From a virus: a stretch of 6,326 bases of DNA. The stretch is from UHGV virus genome UHGV-0210517. The stretch is one strand, 5' to 3'. The notes under the pieces were generated by a model. That model worked only from the letters and a program-made list of their open reading frames with translations, ran no database searches and was not told the DNA's origin. The position numbers were made by a program, and so were the translations under genes. This document shows, in pieces, positions 43 to 6,307 of this stretch (position 1 is its first letter; each line of letters starts with the position of its first letter).

Positions 43-2040
43 ATGCCTAGTACACAAATGCGTGATGTCAAAGACATCAAAGATTTAGTTCTTGAACAGA
101 CAATGGATCCTAAAGTTGGTCGTTCCGAGGTTAATATATCTTGTCGTAAATTCATGAATGGTGATATTGGTATGATTATGCCTATCGATATCTTTCCTGT
201 TATTCCCGGCGATTCTCTTAACATCGCTTGTCGGTATATTATTAATACTGAAGCTTTACAGGTCGTTCCTTTTACACGTTACAAAGTTCGTGTTCATTAT
301 TATTTTTCTGACTTAAATTCACTCTGGAAAGGTGCCCAGACTTTTGTTACAAAAGGTCGCAATTCTTCCATTAGCTTAAAAATGCCAACTTGGAAAATAT
401 CTGACTCTTTAAATTTCATATCTGATACTGATTATTCTATTTCTAATCATGAGAAAGTTTCTTACAATTCCCCTATGTCTTTAACAGCTTTCATGAAAGT
501 TCCTCCTACTGTTTTTGGTGGTGCTTCTAAAACTGCTAATCAGTTTGATTCTTATCTGCCTTTCTGTAGTATTCGTGGTACTGCCGGTACTGATTGGTTT
601 TATACTGGATATCATTATCCCTCTAAACTCAATCTTCTCCCTTACTTCATGTATCAAAAAATTTATCGTTTTAATTACCTTGCTAATAACCTTATGCAAT
701 CTAATAAGATTTGGTTTCCAGATGATTTGGCTGATGAATGGCGTATTTCTTATAGCGGAGATAATGTTTCCTGTCTTCGTGATTCAAGTGATGAGTCTTA
801 TCATGCTATGCCTTTCTTTGTTCCTTCTTCTTCTGCTTTACCAAAAGCAGCTGATGGTTTCAAATCCTCCTTTATTCCTATTGCTTCGGGCGTCAATGCT
901 GACAACTGTGTAAACCTTTTCTGTATGCGTTATTGTATGTACGGAAATGATATTTTCACAACTGCCTTACCTTGGCTTACTCGTGGTTCTGAACCAACAG
1001 TAGACAGTACTCTCTCTGCTGTTGATAACTTCGTTAAAGCTCAATTCCGCAATCCTGTTAATGGTGCATTTATAGCTGGCTCTGGTATTAATTATAATAA
1101 TGACTCTGAACATTCAGTTTCTTTTATTGGTCGTGATTACGTTTCTAAACTTACCATTCCTACTTTGGAAGGTAATGTTACTGGTCGTACTAATGCTAAA
1201 GTTCAAAGACCTTCTTCTTCTGGTGGTGAGCTCGGTGTTAATATTAATAACGTTCAAGTTAGGATGTCCCTTACCGCTAATCAGATTCGTAATTTACTTG
1301 CACTTTCTGTATTTCAAGAGAGGAATGCATTAACAAATGGAGACTACAATTCATTTATCCGTGCCCATTACGGACTTACACCAAAACAGCCCGATTATGA
1401 ACCTAAGTATATCGGCGGAACTTCTTCCTACATTGACTTTTCTGAAGTTATTCAGACTTCTGAAAGTGGAACGACTCCGCAAGGTCGTCAAACTGGATTA
1501 GGTTTTAACACCAATGAAGGTTTTATTGGTCATTTCCAGACTAATGATTTTGGTTATATTATGGCGGTTATGATGATTACTCCTGAAGTGTCTTATGTTC
1601 AAGGTCTTGAGCATTGGCAGTTTGATGATACTGCTGAAGACTTGTACTTCCCGGAGCGTGCTAATCTTTCATTTCAGCCTGTTCTTAATAAACAGATTTA
1701 TATTTCTGGCACTTCTGATGATGATGACCTTTTTGGATATTCAACTCGTTATGCTTATCTTAAACAGCGTGATGATTGTGTTACTGGTCTTTTATCTTTG
1801 CCTCCTAAACTGTTTGAAGGTACAAATACTGATTTACTTATGACAGCTTACACTCAAGCTCGTGTTTTTGAATCTTGCCCTAAGCTTTCGCAGCAGTTTT
1901 TAACCGTTGCTCCTAACAACATTCGCCGTGATTTTATGTTTGCTCCAAGTCAGCCACTTTTCCGCATTCAGGTTGCTTCTGATGTCAGAGGTTCTCGTTG
2001 TATTCCTTGGAGTAATACTCCTAATACTTTCGGTTTCTAA
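43..2040 (+). CDS. VP1: Microviridae major capsid protein (VP1/F-like), 665 aa
   Basis: Microvirus capsid-like motifs: PVIPGDS, LLPYFMYQKIY, DIFTTALPW, TANQIR...ERNA...YNSFIRAHYG, PKYIGG, FGYIM, FGYSTRYAYLK. Start moved from GTG at 1 to ATG at 43 because GGAG (33-36) precedes it and bases 1-21 belong to a hairpin. Confidence 0.95.
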   Translation: MPSTQMRDVKDIKDLVLEQTMDPKVGRSEVNISCRKFMNGDIGMIMPIDIFPVIPGDSLNIACRYIINTEALQVVPFTRYKVRVHYYFSDLNSLWKGAQTFVTKGRNSSISLKMPTWKISDSLNFISDTDYSISNHEKVSYNSPMSLTAFMKVPPTVFGGASKTANQFDSYLPFCSIRGTAGTDWFYTGYHYPSKLNLLPYFMYQKIYRFNYLANNLMQSNKIWFPDDLADEWRISYSGDNVSCLRDSSDESYHAMPFFVPSSSALPKAADGFKSSFIPIASGVNADNCVNLFCMRYCMYGNDIFTTALPWLTRGSEPTVDSTLSAVDNFVKAQFRNPVNGAFIAGSGINYNNDSEHSVSFIGRDYVSKLTIPTLEGNVTGRTNAKVQRPSSSGGELGVNINNVQVRMSLTANQIRNLLALSVFQERNALTNGDYNSFIRAHYGLTPKQPDYEPKYIGGTSSYIDFSEVIQTSESGTTPQGRQTGLGFNTNEGFIGHFQTNDFGYIMAVMMITPEVSYVQGLEHWQFDDTAEDLYFPERANLSFQPVLNKQIYISGTSDDDDLFGYSTRYAYLKQRDDCVTGLLSLPPKLFEGTNTDLLMTAYTQARVFESCPKLSQQFLTVAPNNIRRDFMFAPSQPLFRIQVASDVRGSRCIPWSNTPNTFGF

Positions 2041-2051
2041 GAGGTTTATTT

Positions 2052-2501
2052 ATGGCATTAACTACAAAACAATATTACGCTTCTATTTCTCGTGTTGGTT
2101 TTTCTGCTTGGAAATCTCTTCCTCCTCCAGTATACGACGATATTGTTGATAAGACTGATTTTCGCCCTGACGCTGAAACCGTTCGAGGTGCTTCAATTTC
2201 TTCTCTTCCAGCTATGAAGGGAGTTTATGATTATGAAGACGGTGAAGTTTCCGATAGTAAACGCCCTTCTGACATTATCATGGCTCTGCGTGAAGGCAAA
2301 CTTGACAAAGCTGACTTGCCTGCTATAGAATCTCAATTAAAAGAGGAGATTCAGAATGAAAATGATAAACTTCAGCAAAAAGCCGATGAAGCAGCCCTTG
2401 CAAGCATTTCTAAGGCTCGGCAAGATTATCTTGACAGCCTTACCGGCTTTGATAAAAATTCTGTCCCTAACGAACAAGGTCAAAACACAGGAGGAAAATA
2501 A
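2052..2501 (+). CDS. 149-aa protein, possibly internal scaffolding (VP3-like)
   Basis: GAGGT (2041-2045) 6 nt before ATG, directly after the VP1 stop. Acidic, predicted helical C-terminal half, size typical of VP3. The gene looks real; the function is inferred only from size, position and composition. Confidence 0.6.
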   Translation: MALTTKQYYASISRVGFSAWKSLPPPVYDDIVDKTDFRPDAETVRGASISSLPAMKGVYDYEDGEVSDSKRPSDIIMALREGKLDKADLPAIESQLKEEIQNENDKLQQKADEAALASISKARQDYLDSLTGFDKNSVPNEQGQNTGGK

Positions 2502-2602
2502 TGGATAAAAATAAGATTACTTTGACAATCAGTTTCATCATTACTGCATTGTCGTCTATTGGTAATTTGATTCTTGACTTGTTGTCCAAGATACCAAATT
2601 AA
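2501..2602 (+). CDS. 33-aa hydrophobic peptide MDKNKITLTISFIITALSSIGNLILDLLSKIPN (not in the ORF track)
   Basis: AGGAGG at 2489-2494; ATG overlaps the upstream stop (TAATG, 2499-2503); stop TAA at 2600-2602; uncharged residues 6-25. Confidence 0.8.
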   Translation: MDKNKITLTISFIITALSSIGNLILDLLSKIPN

Positions 2603-2610
2603 ACCATGCA

Positions 2611-2871
2611 GTTTTGCACACGTGAGTGTGTAAAACCCTCTAGGCTTTCCGCCTCGGCGGAAAGTGCATTCAGGGCTTTTCCACAATCTTTAGATTGTGG
2701 AAAAGAATGCCTCCAGTATTCCTGCTTCGTAACTTGTGGGAAACTCGGAGGCATTTTTTATTGCCGTAGAGTTTTCCATAAGTGTATTAAAGTCATTTCG
2801 CCAAAGATTCCGCCTTAGCGGAAGATTTAAGCGAAATGGCTGGTTGCATACATGAGTCCCGGCGAAGCCGG
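2611..2871 (+). other. Hairpin array; candidate complementary-strand origin and/or structured 3' RNA
   Basis: Inverted repeats: 2611-2621/2626-2636, 2645-2653/2656-2664, 2676-2689/2692-2705 (perfect 14 bp), 2706-2714/2747-2755, 2732-2746/2769-2783, 2791-2801/2831-2841 with inner 2808-2813/2818-2823, and 2859-2863/2867-2871. Confidence 0.7.
2706..2759 (+). terminator. Possible intrinsic terminator after the late genes
   Basis: AATGCCTCC (2706-2714) pairs with GGAGGCATT (2747-2755), with further imperfect inner pairing, running into TTTTTT (2754-2759). Longer than a typical terminator hairpin. Confidence 0.45.
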
Positions 2872-2958
2872 TCAAAATTTTCCCTTCTAAGCCACTCTAT
2901 TGGCTCTACAATCAATTTAATTTTAAAAAACGTTAATTTATATTATTTAGGTCTAAAA

Positions 2959-2989
2959 CGTGCGTGCGCGTGTCTCACGTGCGCGTACG
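2959..2989 (+). repeat. Alternating purine-pyrimidine inverted repeat
   Basis: CGTGCGTGCGCGTG-TCT-CACGTGCGCGTACG: 14-bp stem with three G-T wobbles, a GC island within AT-rich DNA. Confidence 0.8.
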
Positions 2990-3053
2990 ATGTTCTGACT
3001 AAATATATATACATTTGTTTCAAAAAACACTATACAGCGAAAAAATACAAAAT

Positions 3054-3093
3054 CTAGTATATTTACCGCCTCTTGATATGGTAAATATACTAG
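3054..3093 (+). other. Probable rolling-circle (plus-strand) origin; predicted nick between G3075 and A3076
   Basis: Perfect 14-bp inverted repeat CTAGTATATTTACC/GGTAAATATACTAG. The loop GCCTCTTGATAT contains CTTGATA (3072-3078), the nick core shared by phiX174 (CAACTTG^ATA) and pC194-family origins. Confidence 0.8.
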
Positions 3094-3195
3094 TCGAATT
3101 TTAATAAAAGTTATTAACCTTTTATAGTGCTTTTGTATAGGAAAAATTCCACTATACAACTTATAAAAAAAGTTCAATAATTTAAAATAAATGTA

Positions 3196-3224
3196 TTGAC
3201 ATTTTATTTTTTTTATGTTATATT
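3196..3224 (+). promoter_or_regulatory. sigma70/sigmaA promoter with extended -10
   Basis: TTGACA (3196-3201), 17-nt spacer, TG (3216-3217), TATATT (3219-3224). AT-rich UP-like tract upstream; GGAGG SD (3238-3242) and ATG 3250 downstream. Confidence 0.85.
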
Positions 3225-3249
3225 TTAATCATCAAACGGAGGTACGATT

Positions 3250-3459
3250 ATGAATAATCTTGAGTTTAGTAATTGTGAAATTTCACATTTACATAATGCT
3301 TTGACGACTGCTTTTTTCTACAGTCAGAAACAACTTTCTCATTGGTTAGAAGTAGCAGAAAAAAATCCTTCTGCTATGGCTTGTGTTAAAATGACAGAAT
3401 TGGAGATTTCCTTTTATTCTGATCTTCTCAAAAAACTTGAATCTGCTAGAGGTTTCTAA
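3250..3459 (+). CDS. 69-aa hypothetical protein, first gene after the promoter
   Basis: GGAGGT 6 nt before ATG; stop abuts the next ATG. Looks helical; no family recognised. Confidence 0.8.
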   Translation: MNNLEFSNCEISHLHNALTTAFFYSQKQLSHWLEVAEKNPSAMACVKMTELEISFYSDLLKKLESARGF

Positions 3460-3645
3460 ATGCAAAAGTCAGACAATGTTAATCAATCTTTTCGTTGTTC
3501 AAAAAATGAGCGTGATAGTTTTCAGAATAAATATCCTTACATGATGTCTCATTTTCTTCGCCATGCCCTTGTCAAAGCTCTCAATGATAAGGTATTCTTT
3601 AACTACGTTTGTTTTGAGAGCGATAATTCTATTTTGAAATATTAG
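3460..3645 (+). CDS. 61-aa protein, possible ribbon-helix-helix (CopG/Arc-like) DNA-binding protein
   Basis: GAGGT (3449-3453) 6 nt before ATG. Pattern VNQSFRCS (strand), KNERDSFQNKY (helix A), MSHFLRHALVKAL (helix B, SxxLRxAL). Confidence 0.6.
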   Translation: MQKSDNVNQSFRCSKNERDSFQNKYPYMMSHFLRHALVKALNDKVFFNYVCFESDNSILKY

Positions 3646-3655
3646 AGGTGTAAAT

Positions 3656-4594
3656 ATGGGTTGGAATCCTTTTAATGCTGTTAAAAAATATGTCTCAAAT
3701 CCTATGACCTGGCTTACAGGCGGTACTAACGTTCAGCTTGATTTAGCTGATAAAGGTTTACGGCGTTTTGGTGTTGACATTTTTGGTAATAAACAGCAAG
3801 AATTTAATAATAATATTGCTCAAGAAAACAATCAGCTTCAGAAGGATAGCTATAATTTTAACAAAAACCTTGCTTCTGAAACTCTTAATATAAATAAAGA
3901 TGTAACTTACAATGGCTCCCAGATTAAATCTGCTGACATGGCAAAAGCAGGATTAAATCCTCTTGCTGGTGTCAATGCCTCTCCTTCGACAATTTCATCT
4001 TCAAATGTTTCTAGTCCTAATCTTTCACAACCTAATTTAGTTGCCCAGACTGAATTGCAGAAAATTCAAACTGTTGCTGGTCTTGCTATGCAGGCAAAAC
4101 AGCTGCAATCTTCTTTAGCTTCTTCCGCTGTCAATGATGACGCTACTAAGGCACAAACTCGTTATCAGCAACTTGTTAACGATTATTTTGAAAAGCATGG
4201 TGTTTTACCTACACAGCAAAATGAATGGGTTGCTCAACTTCTTCCACTTATGGAAAAATACGGTGATACTGTTAAAGGTTTGCCTCAAAGCTTTATTGAT
4301 TCTCTTAATAACTTTAAAGCCCAGAAACAGCAGGAAAAAATTGATAGTATTGTCCAGAAAAATGAACAGAAAACACAACGGTCTTATAATCAAGGTAAGA
4401 CAGATAGCTATTATGGCAAAAAAACTATTAATTCTGCAAAATATGAGATTTCAAAGTATCCACCTAATGAAAAAGGTTTTATTGATTGGCGTAACTCTCG
4501 CCAAGGTCAGGAAATGATTAAACTTTACGGTTACTCTTCTGCTCGTGAATATTTCTTTGAGGAATCTAATAACTTTAGGAAGTATAACAAATGA
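3656..4594 (+). CDS. VP2: DNA pilot protein (VP2/H-like), 312 aa
   Basis: DMAKAGLNP motif typical of microvirus pilot proteins; Q/N/A/S-rich coiled-coil-like segments; GAGGT (3645-3649) 6 nt before ATG. Confidence 0.88.
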   Translation: MGWNPFNAVKKYVSNPMTWLTGGTNVQLDLADKGLRRFGVDIFGNKQQEFNNNIAQENNQLQKDSYNFNKNLASETLNINKDVTYNGSQIKSADMAKAGLNPLAGVNASPSTISSSNVSSPNLSQPNLVAQTELQKIQTVAGLAMQAKQLQSSLASSAVNDDATKAQTRYQQLVNDYFEKHGVLPTQQNEWVAQLLPLMEKYGDTVKGLPQSFIDSLNNFKAQKQQEKIDSIVQKNEQKTQRSYNQGKTDSYYGKKTINSAKYEISKYPPNEKGFIDWRNSRQGQEMIKLYGYSSAREYFFEESNNFRKYNK

Positions 4595-5067
4595 ATCCAC
4601 TTGAATTAAGGCATTCTGATTTCAAATACCTTTACTTTGATTCAGATTTACGTGAGATATTTAAGATTTCTAAGGAATTATCTGATGTTGTCAAGCTTAT
4701 CCAGAACAGATTTGTTCATAAGGAAAGTACACATATTGCTAAGAGTGTTTTTAATTATGTTGAAAAAAAAGATTTGCTTTATTATCAGCCGCAATTGTTT
4801 TATGACTTTCGCTTCGGTGATATTAGAATTTGTATCGCTCCTGATTATGATACTAAAAACCGCCTTCATCATTATTACATTCAGTTTCATAATTACAAGC
4901 CTGATTTCAATAATAAATACTTTGCTTCTTTGTTGAAAAAATACCATTATGGCTTTGACGGTCGTTTTTATATGTTTGATACTCTTGATGACGCTATTAA
5001 GCAGTTTAATGAGTTTGTACTTGATTGTATCAATGAGCGTATTTTACACTCTTTTAACTTCCGATGA
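4591..5067 (+). CDS. 158-aa hypothetical protein rich in F/Y/H/K/D
   Basis: Fills the VP2-VP4 gap exactly, with ATGA start/stop overlaps at both ends (4591-4594, 5064-5067); AGGA at 4577-4580. Confidence 0.8.
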   Translation: MNPLELRHSDFKYLYFDSDLREIFKISKELSDVVKLIQNRFVHKESTHIAKSVFNYVEKKDLLYYQPQLFYDFRFGDIRICIAPDYDTKNRLHHYYIQFHNYKPDFNNKYFASLLKKYHYGFDGRFYMFDTLDDAIKQFNEFVLDCINERILHSFNFR

Positions 5068-6032
5068 GTTGTCCTAGACCACAATTTTATCATGATATTA
5101 GAGATTACCGTGGTAATAAGGTGCCTATTCCTTGTGGCTATTGTCTTTCTTGTCGTATTGACAAGCGAATCTTATGGGAACAGAGATTGAAGTCTGAATA
5201 TGTTTCAAATTCTTCTTCGTTCGTAACTCTTACTTATGATGATAATCATTTGAGGTATATTAATGATAATTCATTTTATCCAACTACTGATTTTAATCAG
5301 CTTCATCGTTATGTTGATACTCTTCGCCACAAAGTTCGCTCACTCTCTTATAAAGATTTTTATATCAATCCGTCTTTTAAGGTTTTTGGTTGCACTGAAT
5401 ATGGTGATAGTTTTAACCGTCCTCATGCTCATCTCTTATTTTTTGGATTAGATTTTTCTAGGTGTTATAAGTTATTCAAAACTACCTGGAAGAATGGAAA
5501 TGTTAAGGTTTTACCGTTGCTTAGCGGTGGTATTCGTTATGTATTAAAGTATCTTGATAAGCAGCAGGATACTAAGGAGTTAATTCAGAAAAAATATCTT
5601 GACTATGGTATTGAGCCGCCCAGAAGGCTTATTGGTCGTAATATCGGAGTTGACTATATTATTTCGCAGATTCCCAATCTTAGGAAATACGGAATGTTTA
5701 AAGTTGGTGATAGGTTTATTCCTTGCCCTCAATATTACAAAAACAAATATCTTGAATACAATGATGACTATATCGAATTGCTTGACCGTAATTTTGATTT
5801 ACGTCAAAGAGATTTAAGAATTAAAGCCGAGAAGCTCGGATATTCTTCCGTTGAAAGGATGCTTGCTATCCAAACAACTGCTAAAGAGGAAGCAATTTAT
5901 TCTAAGCTTATGAATAATGCTGAATGTGCTCAAGATTACTTATCTTGTGTTCATCATCTTAGGCGTATGCCTAAATTAAAGTTATATCTTGTTGCTGAAA
6001 AAGCCCTGGATATTCCTGTTGATTTATTTTAG
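5064..6032 (+). CDS. VP4: Rolling-circle replication initiator (VP4, HUH endonuclease), 322 aa
   Basis: N-terminal C...IPCGYCLSCR, motif I FVTLTY, EYG...RPHAHLLFF (HUH motif II), motif III YVLKY with two tyrosines, and PQYY. Confidence 0.96.
   Translation: MSCPRPQFYHDIRDYRGNKVPIPCGYCLSCRIDKRILWEQRLKSEYVSNSSSFVTLTYDDNHLRYINDNSFYPTTDFNQLHRYVDTLRHKVRSLSYKDFYINPSFKVFGCTEYGDSFNRPHAHLLFFGLDFSRCYKLFKTTWKNGNVKVLPLLSGGIRYVLKYLDKQQDTKELIQKKYLDYGIEPPRRLIGRNIGVDYIISQIPNLRKYGMFKVGDRFIPCPQYYKNKYLEYNDDYIELLDRNFDLRQRDLRIKAEKLGYSSVERMLAIQTTAKEEAIYSKLMNNAECAQDYLSCVHHLRRMPKLKLYLVAEKALDIPVDLF
5263..5451 (+). CDS. Candidate overprinted 62-aa membrane protein in the +1 frame of VP4
   Basis: GAGGT (5252-5256) 6 nt before ATG, the same motif and spacing as four credible genes; two hydrophobic segments. 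Could be a codon-bias shadow ORF. Confidence 0.35.
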   Translation: MIIHFIQLLILISFIVMLILFATKFAHSLIKIFISIRLLRFLVALNMVIVLTVLMLISYFLD

Positions 6033-6043
6033 AGGTTTACAAA

Positions 6044-6307
6044 ATGGAAAGAAACTTAAAAATTTATGTTGTTCGTGATAACGTTGCTAATGATGTCGTA
6101 TCTGTTAACACTGCTACTACTGACGGTATGTTCGTTCGTACTTATGCAAAGAGTTTTCAGAGTCTTAATCCGAATTTTTTAACTGACTTTGAAATTTATC
6201 AAGTTGGTTCTGTTAATTTTGATACGTTTGAATGTCGTCCTTGTGATAAGAGAAAAGTTTCATGGGATTCTTACAAAATGCCTGAAACTACTGTTGATTT
6301 AAAGTAA
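6044..6307 (+). CDS. VP5: VP5-like nonstructural protein, 87 aa
   Basis: LKIYVVRDNVA...DFEIYQVGSVN resembles the VP5 pattern (IY...D..A / DF.LY.IG.FD); directly follows VP4; GAGGT at 6032-6036. Confidence 0.8.
   Translation: MERNLKIYVVRDNVANDVVSVNTATTDGMFVRTYAKSFQSLNPNFLTDFEIYQVGSVNFDTFECRPCDKRKVSWDSYKMPETTVDLK

What the first reader, a model, noticed from the sequence alone, without database searches (positions are those of the whole stretch)
2611..2783. DnaA boxes in three hairpin stems: possible DnaA-dependent (ABC-primosome-like) origin in an ssDNA phage
Seen: four exact TTWTNCACA matches in under 100 nt (TTTTGCACA 2612-2620, TGTGTAAAA 2627-2635, TTTTCCACA 2677-2685, TGTGGAAAA 2696-2704) plus two one-mismatch copies (2735-2743, 2772-2780). 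They form three inverted pairs, each pairing within one stem, so the folded ssDNA would show three duplex boxes. The two arms of a stem are not independent, so this is about three observations. Known: a DnaA box in a hairpin stem (R6K A-site) supports DnaA/DnaB/DnaC priming on ssDNA, whereas phiX174 uses PriA and G4 uses DnaG directly. Inference: this phage may use host DnaA for ssDNA-to-RF conversion. I do not know of this being described for a microvirus.
Basis: partly seen in the sequence, partly recalled or inferred. Interest (0 to 1): 0.85.

Follow-up and report, generated by a model that had tools for sequence, protein, structure and literature searches.

The report
DnaA-box priming hairpins in Treponema microvirus
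A tiny single-stranded DNA phage, likely of Treponema gut bacteria, carries conserved hairpins predicted to fold into binding sites for the host's chromosome-replication initiator DnaA, and likely uses them to start copying its incoming strand, a priming route known from a plasmid but not found for this phage family in the papers I could search.

Summary
The window is a complete microvirus genome, and all six 9-mers lie at the stated places in three predicted stems. Relatives keep the 9-mer while the surrounding stem changes in compensatory pairs or is replaced outright. An exact box sits in an intergenic stem in 18 of 38 loci of the capsid clade, against 2 of 195 other microviruses; no permuted motif exceeded 8. 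Imperfect pairs in the box duplex are 24 G·T and 0 A·C on the coding strand, and they concentrate at box positions 4 and 8. Several hairpins, the window's third among them, have no consensus box as double-stranded DNA. A hairpin beside pir in plasmid R6K, most likely the A site, has the same position-4 mismatch, and its homologues switch between T·T and T·G as the phage ones do. Prophages and CRISPR spacers point to Treponema-family hosts, whose dnaA-downstream region favours TTTTCCACA and which encode DciA. Best reading (0.72): an A-site-like, DnaA-dependent origin for complementary-strand synthesis. Binding and priming are untested, and 15 of 38 clade loci lack the element.

The parts
2611..2636 (+). 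Hairpin 1: 11-bp stem; box duplex TTTTGCACA / TGTGTAAAA with a G·T pair at the free position 5. Accessory copy, present in 2 of the 5 closest sequences.
2644..2665 (+). Box-less GC-rich hairpin between hairpins 1 and 2, in the same inserted stretch; a similar arm recurs at 2808-2823.
2676..2705 (+). Hairpin 2: 13-bp stem with a perfect TTTTCCACA / TGTGGAAAA duplex. All 3 flanking pairs counted show a change on both sides among 5 sequences; the box pairs change only by T·G wobble.
2707..2760 (+). Alternative stem (core 2708-2714 with 2747-2753) followed by a T run: candidate intrinsic terminator of the capsid-VP3-small ORF transcript, mutually exclusive with hairpin 3. The simple terminator scan did not report it.
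2732..2783 (+). Hairpin 3: 15-bp stem plus 4-bp cap; TGTGGGAAA / TTTTCCATA duplex with T·G at box positions 4 and 8. Neither arm is a consensus box in double-stranded DNA. Closest in layout to the R6K hairpin.
2791..2841 (+). Box-less downstream hairpin, kept in 3 of the 5 closest sequences; role unknown.
43..2040 (+). Context: major capsid protein VP1; defines the family and the coding strand, which is the packaged strand in characterised microviruses (established knowledge).
5064..6032 (+). Context: rolling-circle replication initiator VP4, which needs a double-stranded template made beforehand by host enzymes.

Best explanation
The hairpins are likely a complementary-strand origin of the R6K A-site type: the incoming single strand is predicted to fold so that host DnaA would bind the box duplex and would recruit the replicative helicase and primase to make the double-stranded replicative form. 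Shown: the boxes, the predicted stems, their conservation pattern and the likeness to the R6K hairpin. Inferred: the coding strand is the packaged strand; the host is a Treponema-family bacterium; DnaA binds the folded, mismatched duplex; DnaB is loaded, probably with DciA in place of DnaC; DnaG primes. Two or three hairpins in tandem probably raise avidity or give redundancy. The overlap with a terminator-like stem would let the same bases end a transcript as RNA and display a box as DNA.
For: (1) 18 of 38 clade loci against 2 of 195 other microviruses have an exact box in an intergenic stem; 43 of 68 clade intergenic boxes lie in stems against a 7.4% baseline; among 1000 column orders of the motif the true one scored 18, the next best 8, mean 0.25. 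(2) De novo, the top stem 7-mers of the clade are pieces of TGTGGAAAA. (3) 6 of 31 pairs show two-sided changes, all outside the boxes; 0 of 500 shuffles reach this. (4) A Watson-Crick-only, strand-symmetric scan gave 34 arm pairs in 23 of 39 loci, with 24 G·T and 0 A·C among 35 imperfect pairs; 22 of the 24 sit at positions 4 and 8; box T4 is kept in 34 of 34 and the G opposite position 8 in 29 of 34. (5) R6K 25909-25956 folds into a TGTGGTAAA / TTTTCCACA stem with T·T at position 4; three homologues keep the stem, one with T·G. (6) The same signature occurs on the coding strand of two unrelated gokushoviruses, including one hairpin the search pattern did not select. (7) TTTTCCACA is the top 9-mer with two or more G/C bases 3' of dnaA in Treponema-family genomes (13 of 29), with four copies in G001. 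(8) Prophages lie in family genomes, and one CRISPR array holds spacers matching the window (29 of 34) and a phage that shares the element (34 of 37). (9) PMC6127211 (passages) states that DnaA on a single box hairpin loads DnaB for DnaG priming.
Against: No binding or priming data. 15 of 38 clade loci have no stem-embedded box even at one mismatch (four clade contigs are partial), including some of the window's nearer capsid relatives (L252, L337), so other priming signals must serve there. Hosts keep priA (59 of 61 over cut-off), so a PriA route is available. The clade loci are not independent: by hand the positives collapse to about 12 sequence families. Box-less stems also lean to G·T (18 against 4 A·C of 57), and deamination of single-stranded DNA favours the same two changes, so the strand bias alone is weak evidence; the positional pattern carries the weight. 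That the R6K hairpin is the published A site is inferred, not read. dnaA was not found in the spacer-bearing genome or in two prophage genomes (0 of 3).
Confidence: 0.72

Rival explanations
1. DnaA binds the folded strand, but not to prime it: displaced progeny strands titrate host DnaA, slowing chromosome initiation or linking phage replication to host DnaA level.
For: All the structural and sequence evidence shows only a DnaA site on folded single-stranded DNA. Copy number varies from one to three or more. DnaA titration by plasmid-borne boxes is established (PMC5835720, passages). The element is missing from 15 of 38 clade loci.
Against: Titration could be done with ordinary double-stranded boxes on the replicative form and needs no hairpin. 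The match to the R6K hairpin extends to the position-4 mismatch. Ssdna-to-duplex priming is an obligatory step that a hairpin serves in phiX174 (PMC9865509, passage).
Confidence: 0.12
2. The arms are separate DnaA boxes on the double-stranded replicative form (an oriC-like module or a transcription control site), and the stems are a by-product of inverted orientation.
For: Inverted exact pairs are common in viral contigs (about 860 stretches estimated). Earlier AI notes describe oriC-like modules in other gut microviruses. Four arms in the window are exact boxes.
Against: Non-microvirus pairs are helically phased (119 of 135 gaps are 3-5 or 14-15 nt), and only 7 of 135 have an inner stem. Clade gaps run from 4 to 49 nt without significant phase (Rayleigh p 0.18 and 0.28, n = 13 each, related loci included) and most carry paired flanks. 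Several hairpins have two non-consensus arms. A DnaA-trio-like run was found in 0 of 22 phage intergenic sets against 21 of 31 host dnaA loci.
Confidence: 0.07
3. The stems act as RNA: terminators, antiterminators or stabilising hairpins at the 3' end of the capsid operon.
For: The region folds strongly as RNA (z -11). G·U wobbles favour the transcribed strand. A conserved terminator-like stem and T run overlap the cluster.
Against: RNA stems would not need one fixed 9-mer in either arm orientation. Hairpins 1 and 2 are followed by no U run. The 3' arm of hairpin 3 lies beyond the T run, so a terminated transcript could not form it. No Rfam family reaches its cut-off.
Confidence: 0.05
4. The hairpins are a priming or packaging signal read by another protein (PriA, primase or a small phage protein) whose site resembles a DnaA box.
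For: Hosts encode PriA. The phage has small unknown ORFs (3250-3459, 3460-3645) with no PHROG hit and no Pfam hit over cut-off.
Against: The variants seen track host box variants at positions 3 and 5. The signature recurs in enterobacterial plasmids and unrelated gokushoviruses. phiX174 has no exact box, and the one in G4 is not in a stable stem.
Confidence: 0.04

Closest known systems
A site of plasmid R6K / ABC primosome (Masai 1990, 1995; Carr and Kaguni 2002; seen only as described and cited in PMC6127211)
   Same: DnaA box held in a hairpin stem of single-stranded DNA. The R6K hairpin found here has the same TGTGG(T/G)AAA / TTTTCCACA duplex, with the position-4 T·T or T·G, a similar arm spacing (30 nt against 28 in hairpin 3), and covarying flanks.
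   Different: Occurs on a natural ssDNA phage genome, in two to three tandem or nested copies, often with an extra T·G at position 8. Likely host is a spirochaete with DciA rather than DnaC. No sequence similarity beyond the box was found (no meaningful plasmid match). Activity untested.
phiX174 primosome assembly site (PriA) and G4 complementary-strand origin (DnaG)
   Same: Intergenic hairpins downstream of the capsid gene region that start complementary-strand synthesis (PMC9865509 passage for phiX174; G4 origin annotated).
   Different: Neither genome has a stem-embedded DnaA box; they use other host proteins.
oriC-like DnaA-box modules in gut gokushoviruses (unchecked AI notes) and phased inverted boxes in larger phages
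   Same: Host-type DnaA boxes in phage non-coding DNA.
   Different: Those are laid out as double-stranded sites (phased; trios per the notes). These are unphased, trio-less and often complete only when folded.

Membership tests
A-site-type (ABC primosome) single-strand initiation signal | DnaA box matching TTWTNCACA | tested here: met
   host-type variant TTTTCCACA
A-site-type (ABC primosome) single-strand initiation signal | Box lies in the duplex stem of a hairpin on the strand that is single-stranded | tested here: met
   Predicted folds, covariation and wobble strand bias; packaged strand inferred from gene orientation
A-site-type (ABC primosome) single-strand initiation signal | Same duplex anatomy as the R6K site | tested here: met
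   Position-4 T·T / T·G shared; identity of that R6K hairpin with the published A site is inferred from its place 650 nt upstream of pir
A-site-type (ABC primosome) single-strand initiation signal | DnaA binds the hairpin | not testable with these tools
   needs a binding assay
A-site-type (ABC primosome) single-strand initiation signal | DnaC-dependent DnaB loading | tested here: not met
   dciA in 50 of 61 family genomes. PF01695 hit only DnaA above cut-off in 4 of 5 genomes; the fifth has an unassigned 262-aa hit. It may work like an A site but is not a literal ABC system.
A-site-type (ABC primosome) single-strand initiation signal | DnaG priming that is PriA-independent | not testable with these tools
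   hosts encode priA; needs reconstitution
Bacterial oriC unwinding module (double-stranded boxes plus DnaA-trios) | DnaA-trio run beside the boxes | tested here: not met
   0 of 22 phage loci against 21 of 31 host dnaA loci, one Treponema-derived pattern
Bacterial oriC unwinding module (double-stranded boxes plus DnaA-trios) | Helically phased consensus boxes | tested here: not met
Catalogued structured RNA (Rfam 15) | Match at gathering score | tested here: not met
   best E 0.06, all 7 matches below cut-off
Microviridae | Capsid (F/VP1) and rolling-circle Rep on a small genome | tested here: met
   phrog_514, PF02305, phrog_942, PF23343

The most novel reading that the evidence does not exclude
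DnaA-dependent priming at a mismatched hairpin is a third, natural route of ssDNA-to-duplex conversion in Microviridae. It is the main route in a large spirochaete-infecting clade, was reached independently by other microviruses and enterobacterial plasmids, and works in a host with DciA instead of DnaC. The position-4 and position-8 wobbles make a DnaA site that is strong only on the folded single strand and weak on the replicative form, so DnaA is used at entry and not titrated afterwards.
Probability: 0.45. Interest if true: 0.88.

Novelty: new variant of a known kind. Interest (0 to 1): 0.78.

Why it matters
How microviruses other than the coliphages prime their first complementary strand is open: a 2022 study could only point to intergenic hairpins and say their role 'cannot be certified' (PMC9865509, passage). 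This finding names a host protein and a 50-nt testable element. It would turn the ABC primosome, so far met mainly as an in vitro assay on an engineered M13 in what I read, into a natural phage strategy. It gives a minimal substrate for asking how DnaA loads DnaB in DciA-type bacteria. The natural variants also form a ready-made mutational scan of which bases DnaA needs on each strand. The box variant may help assign hosts to uncultured microviruses.

Tried and rejected
A single-sequence VP1 scan of viral contigs found no relative. No whole genome is held for the window. No sequencing run was listed; this is no evidence on expression. Rfam gave no family. The simple terminator scan found none; the candidate has a long interrupted stem. 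Stem-3 indices were off by one and were corrected. The strict Watson-Crick scan missed the R6K hairpin, which folding then found, so that scan undercounts. Plasmid BLAST with the window's hairpins gave only 7 short, weak matches. Relatives of gokushovirus L443 did not share its hairpin: 0 of 48 further loci; the 4 positives of 52 were those chosen by motif. Scans for doubly degenerate arm pairs returned mostly large-phage chance matches: 2 of 121 and 1 of 121 matches were in microviruses. Of the three short DNA hits checked for CRISPR context, only L695 was an array. One search used a sigma-70 family and does not bear on the mechanism. The papers on base-specific DnaA contacts and the hairpin review were not held (searches 84 and 91 empty). 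I recall that DnaA reads T4 on the box strand and the G opposite position 8; this is memory only and was not checked. No structure or complex prediction was run, since none models protein on mismatched DNA.

Full report
What the window is. The 6326 bases are a complete microvirus genome with its recognised genes on the + strand: capsid VP1 43-2040, a VP3-like gene 2052-2501, pilot-like VP2 3656-4594, Rep 5064-6032 and VP5 6044-6307. The finding lies at the start of the long non-coding stretch after the capsid block. In characterised microviruses the coding strand is the packaged strand (established knowledge), so + is taken as the incoming single strand.

Observation. DNA folding places the three pairs in three stems (z -8.0). 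Four exact boxes within 100 nt were not seen in 2000 shuffles of the genome or of the intergenic region. One-mismatch matches over the whole genome are only slightly enriched.

Close relatives. Four GenBank genomes share the element. One has an 83-87% identical capsid; three have capsids under 30% identical, so the element appears to move between distant phages. Across these five sequences 97% of cells pair; 6 of 31 pairs change on both sides, all in the flanks; box pairs change only to T·G or T·T. With five related sequences the shuffle control overstates significance, but the slid controls show no two-sided change. Hairpin 1 is in a stretch of about 52 nt found in 2 of the 5.

The clade. I gathered microvirus loci from viral contigs, metagenomes, bacterial genomes and GenBank. 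A FastTree of 235 capsid proteins of at least 300 aa gave a 38-member clade around the window (support 100). An exact box inside an intergenic stem occurs in 18 of 38 clade loci and 2 of 195 others; with one mismatch, 23 of 38 and 14 of 195. 43 of 68 exact intergenic boxes of the clade are in stems, against 7.4% of all 9-mer windows. Of 1000 column orders of the motif the true order scored 18 and the next best 8. An unbiased count of stem 7-mers is headed by TGGAAAA, GTGGAAA and TGTGGAA (two motif-selected loci were left out of the 'other' set). The stems around the box are otherwise mostly unrelated: single, tandem, nested and branched forms, box on either arm, gaps of 4-49 nt. The loci are not independent; by hand, helped, the positives form about 12 sequence families. 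15 of 38 loci lack the element; they carry other hairpins, and four clade contigs are partial.

Folded strand or duplex? A scan using Watson-Crick pairs only, so blind to strand, found 34 distinct arm pairs in 23 of 39 loci. Their 35 imperfect box pairs are 24 G·T, 5 T·T, 3 A·A, 3 other and no A·C on the + strand. 22 of the 24 G·T lie at box positions 4 and 8. The box-strand T4 is kept in 34 of 34 while its partner is A, G or T; the G opposite position 8 is kept in 29 of 34 while its partner is C or T. In several hairpins, the window's third among them, both arms therefore fail the consensus as duplex DNA, yet the fold keeps T4 and that G together. Box-less stems also lean to G·T (18 against 4 A·C of 57), and deamination could add to this, so the positional pattern is the stronger argument. 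By contrast, exact inverted pairs in other viral contigs are helically phased (119 of 135) and rarely have inner stems (7 of 135). No trio-like run was found in 22 phage loci, against 21 of 31 host dnaA loci. This argues against the oriC-mimic reading that earlier AI notes gave for other gut microviruses.

Positive control. R6K has three exact boxes; two lie in coding sequences and were not folded. The third, 650 nt upstream of pir, folds into TGTGGTAAA-stem-TTTTCCACA with T·T at position 4. Three diverged plasmid copies keep the stem, two of them with a compensatory change beside the box, and one has T·G at position 4. This is the same switch that separates hairpin 3 of the window from that of Dulem virus 253. 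I take this hairpin to be the published A site; that is inferred from its place (the nearness of the gamma origin is recalled) and anatomy. phiX174 has no exact box, and the single G4 box is not in a stable stem. Two unrelated gokushoviruses carry the same signature on their coding strand, but 48 relatives of one of them do not.

Host. The best capsid match in bacterial genomes is a prophage in a Treponema sp. MAG that carries a nested box hairpin. Five of 401 genomes of its family hold a microvirus capsid; three of these fall in the clade, and two of those three carry the element by folding. One family genome has a CRISPR array with 16 extracted spacers, of which one matches the window's VP2 (29 of 34) and one matches Dulem virus 253 (34 of 37); 199 other microvirus loci gave one weak hit. 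Downstream of dnaA, TTTTCCACA is the commonest 9-mer with two or more G/C bases (13 of 29 genomes; TTATCCACA 9, TTTTACACA 6, TTTTGCACA 1). dnaA was not recovered in the spacer-bearing genome. The family has priA (59 of 61) and dciA (50 of 61), and no separate DnaC-family hit in 4 of 5 genomes.

RNA overlap. Bases 2708-2753 form a conserved alternative stem followed by a T run. It is the preferred fold of a transcript ending at 2762 in all five sequences, while hairpin 3 is preferred as DNA in all five. A terminated transcript would not contain the 3' arm of hairpin 3, which points to a DNA role for that hairpin. Termination itself is not shown.

Mechanism. Likely sequence: the + strand enters and folds; DnaA binds the stem duplex; DnaB is loaded on the flanking single strand, probably with DciA; DnaG primes; polymerase makes the replicative form; VP4 then starts rolling-circle synthesis. 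The E. coli version of the middle steps is described in PMC6127211. In E. coli, TTTT-type boxes bind well only with C at position 5 (PMC5835720), which makes hairpin 1 the weakest candidate.

Literature. I read passages of PMC6127211, PMC9865509, PMC5703833, PMC5835720, PMC4285127 and PMC6668415; Masai 1990/1995 and Carr and Kaguni 2002 only as citations. Searches returned no paper; searches listed none whose title or abstract start describes DnaA boxes in a microvirus. The library lacks most subscription journals, and no supplements were opened. One earlier AI note reports an A-site-like hairpin in another ssDNA prophage; it is a lead, not support.

Verdict. Real, conserved and most likely an A-site-like priming origin in a phage family and host group where I found none described. 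New variant of a known kind; interest 0.78.

Noticed in passing
window 2501-2602 (+): 33-codon hydrophobic ORF right after the VP3-like gene, kept in 4 relatives with mostly third-position changes; no Pfam hit. Candidate single-gene lysis protein.
   Followed up: partly
window 3054-3093: Perfect 14-bp inverted repeat with a CTTGAT spacer; similar hairpins with the same spacer occur in L206 (10045-10080, near the prophage end), L335, L254 and L393. Likely a dif-like attachment site (label recalled).
   Followed up: partly
window 2959-2989: Alternating purine-pyrimidine hairpin; a loose pattern for it is met in 23 of 39 clade loci, including some that lack the box hairpins. Function unknown.
   Followed up: partly
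window 3196-3224 (+): Near-consensus sigma-70 promoter (11 of 12, extended -10) ahead of two small unknown ORFs, 3250-3459 and 3460-3645.
   Followed up: no
G001:C13, G275:C13, G191:C12: Three prophages of the clade each lie about 12-13 kb from a 608-611-aa sigma-70 gene, suggesting one shared integration locus.
   Followed up: no
L001-L122 (IMG/VR contigs): Exact inverted DnaA-box pairs with phased gaps (3-5 or 14-15 nt) are very common in larger viral contigs, about 860 stretches estimated: possible widespread DnaA use by dsDNA phages.
   Followed up: partly
L124 (Dulem virus 253) 3499-4316 against window 2500-3250: Non-coding element 85% identical over 43% of the query between phages whose capsids are under 30% identical and whose gene order differs: module exchange within one host group.
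   Followed up: partly
L702, L703: The R6K-type hairpin also occurs on non-IncX2 mobilizable plasmids (rep_cluster_1756) of Klebsiella and Enterobacter, unannotated.
   Followed up: partly
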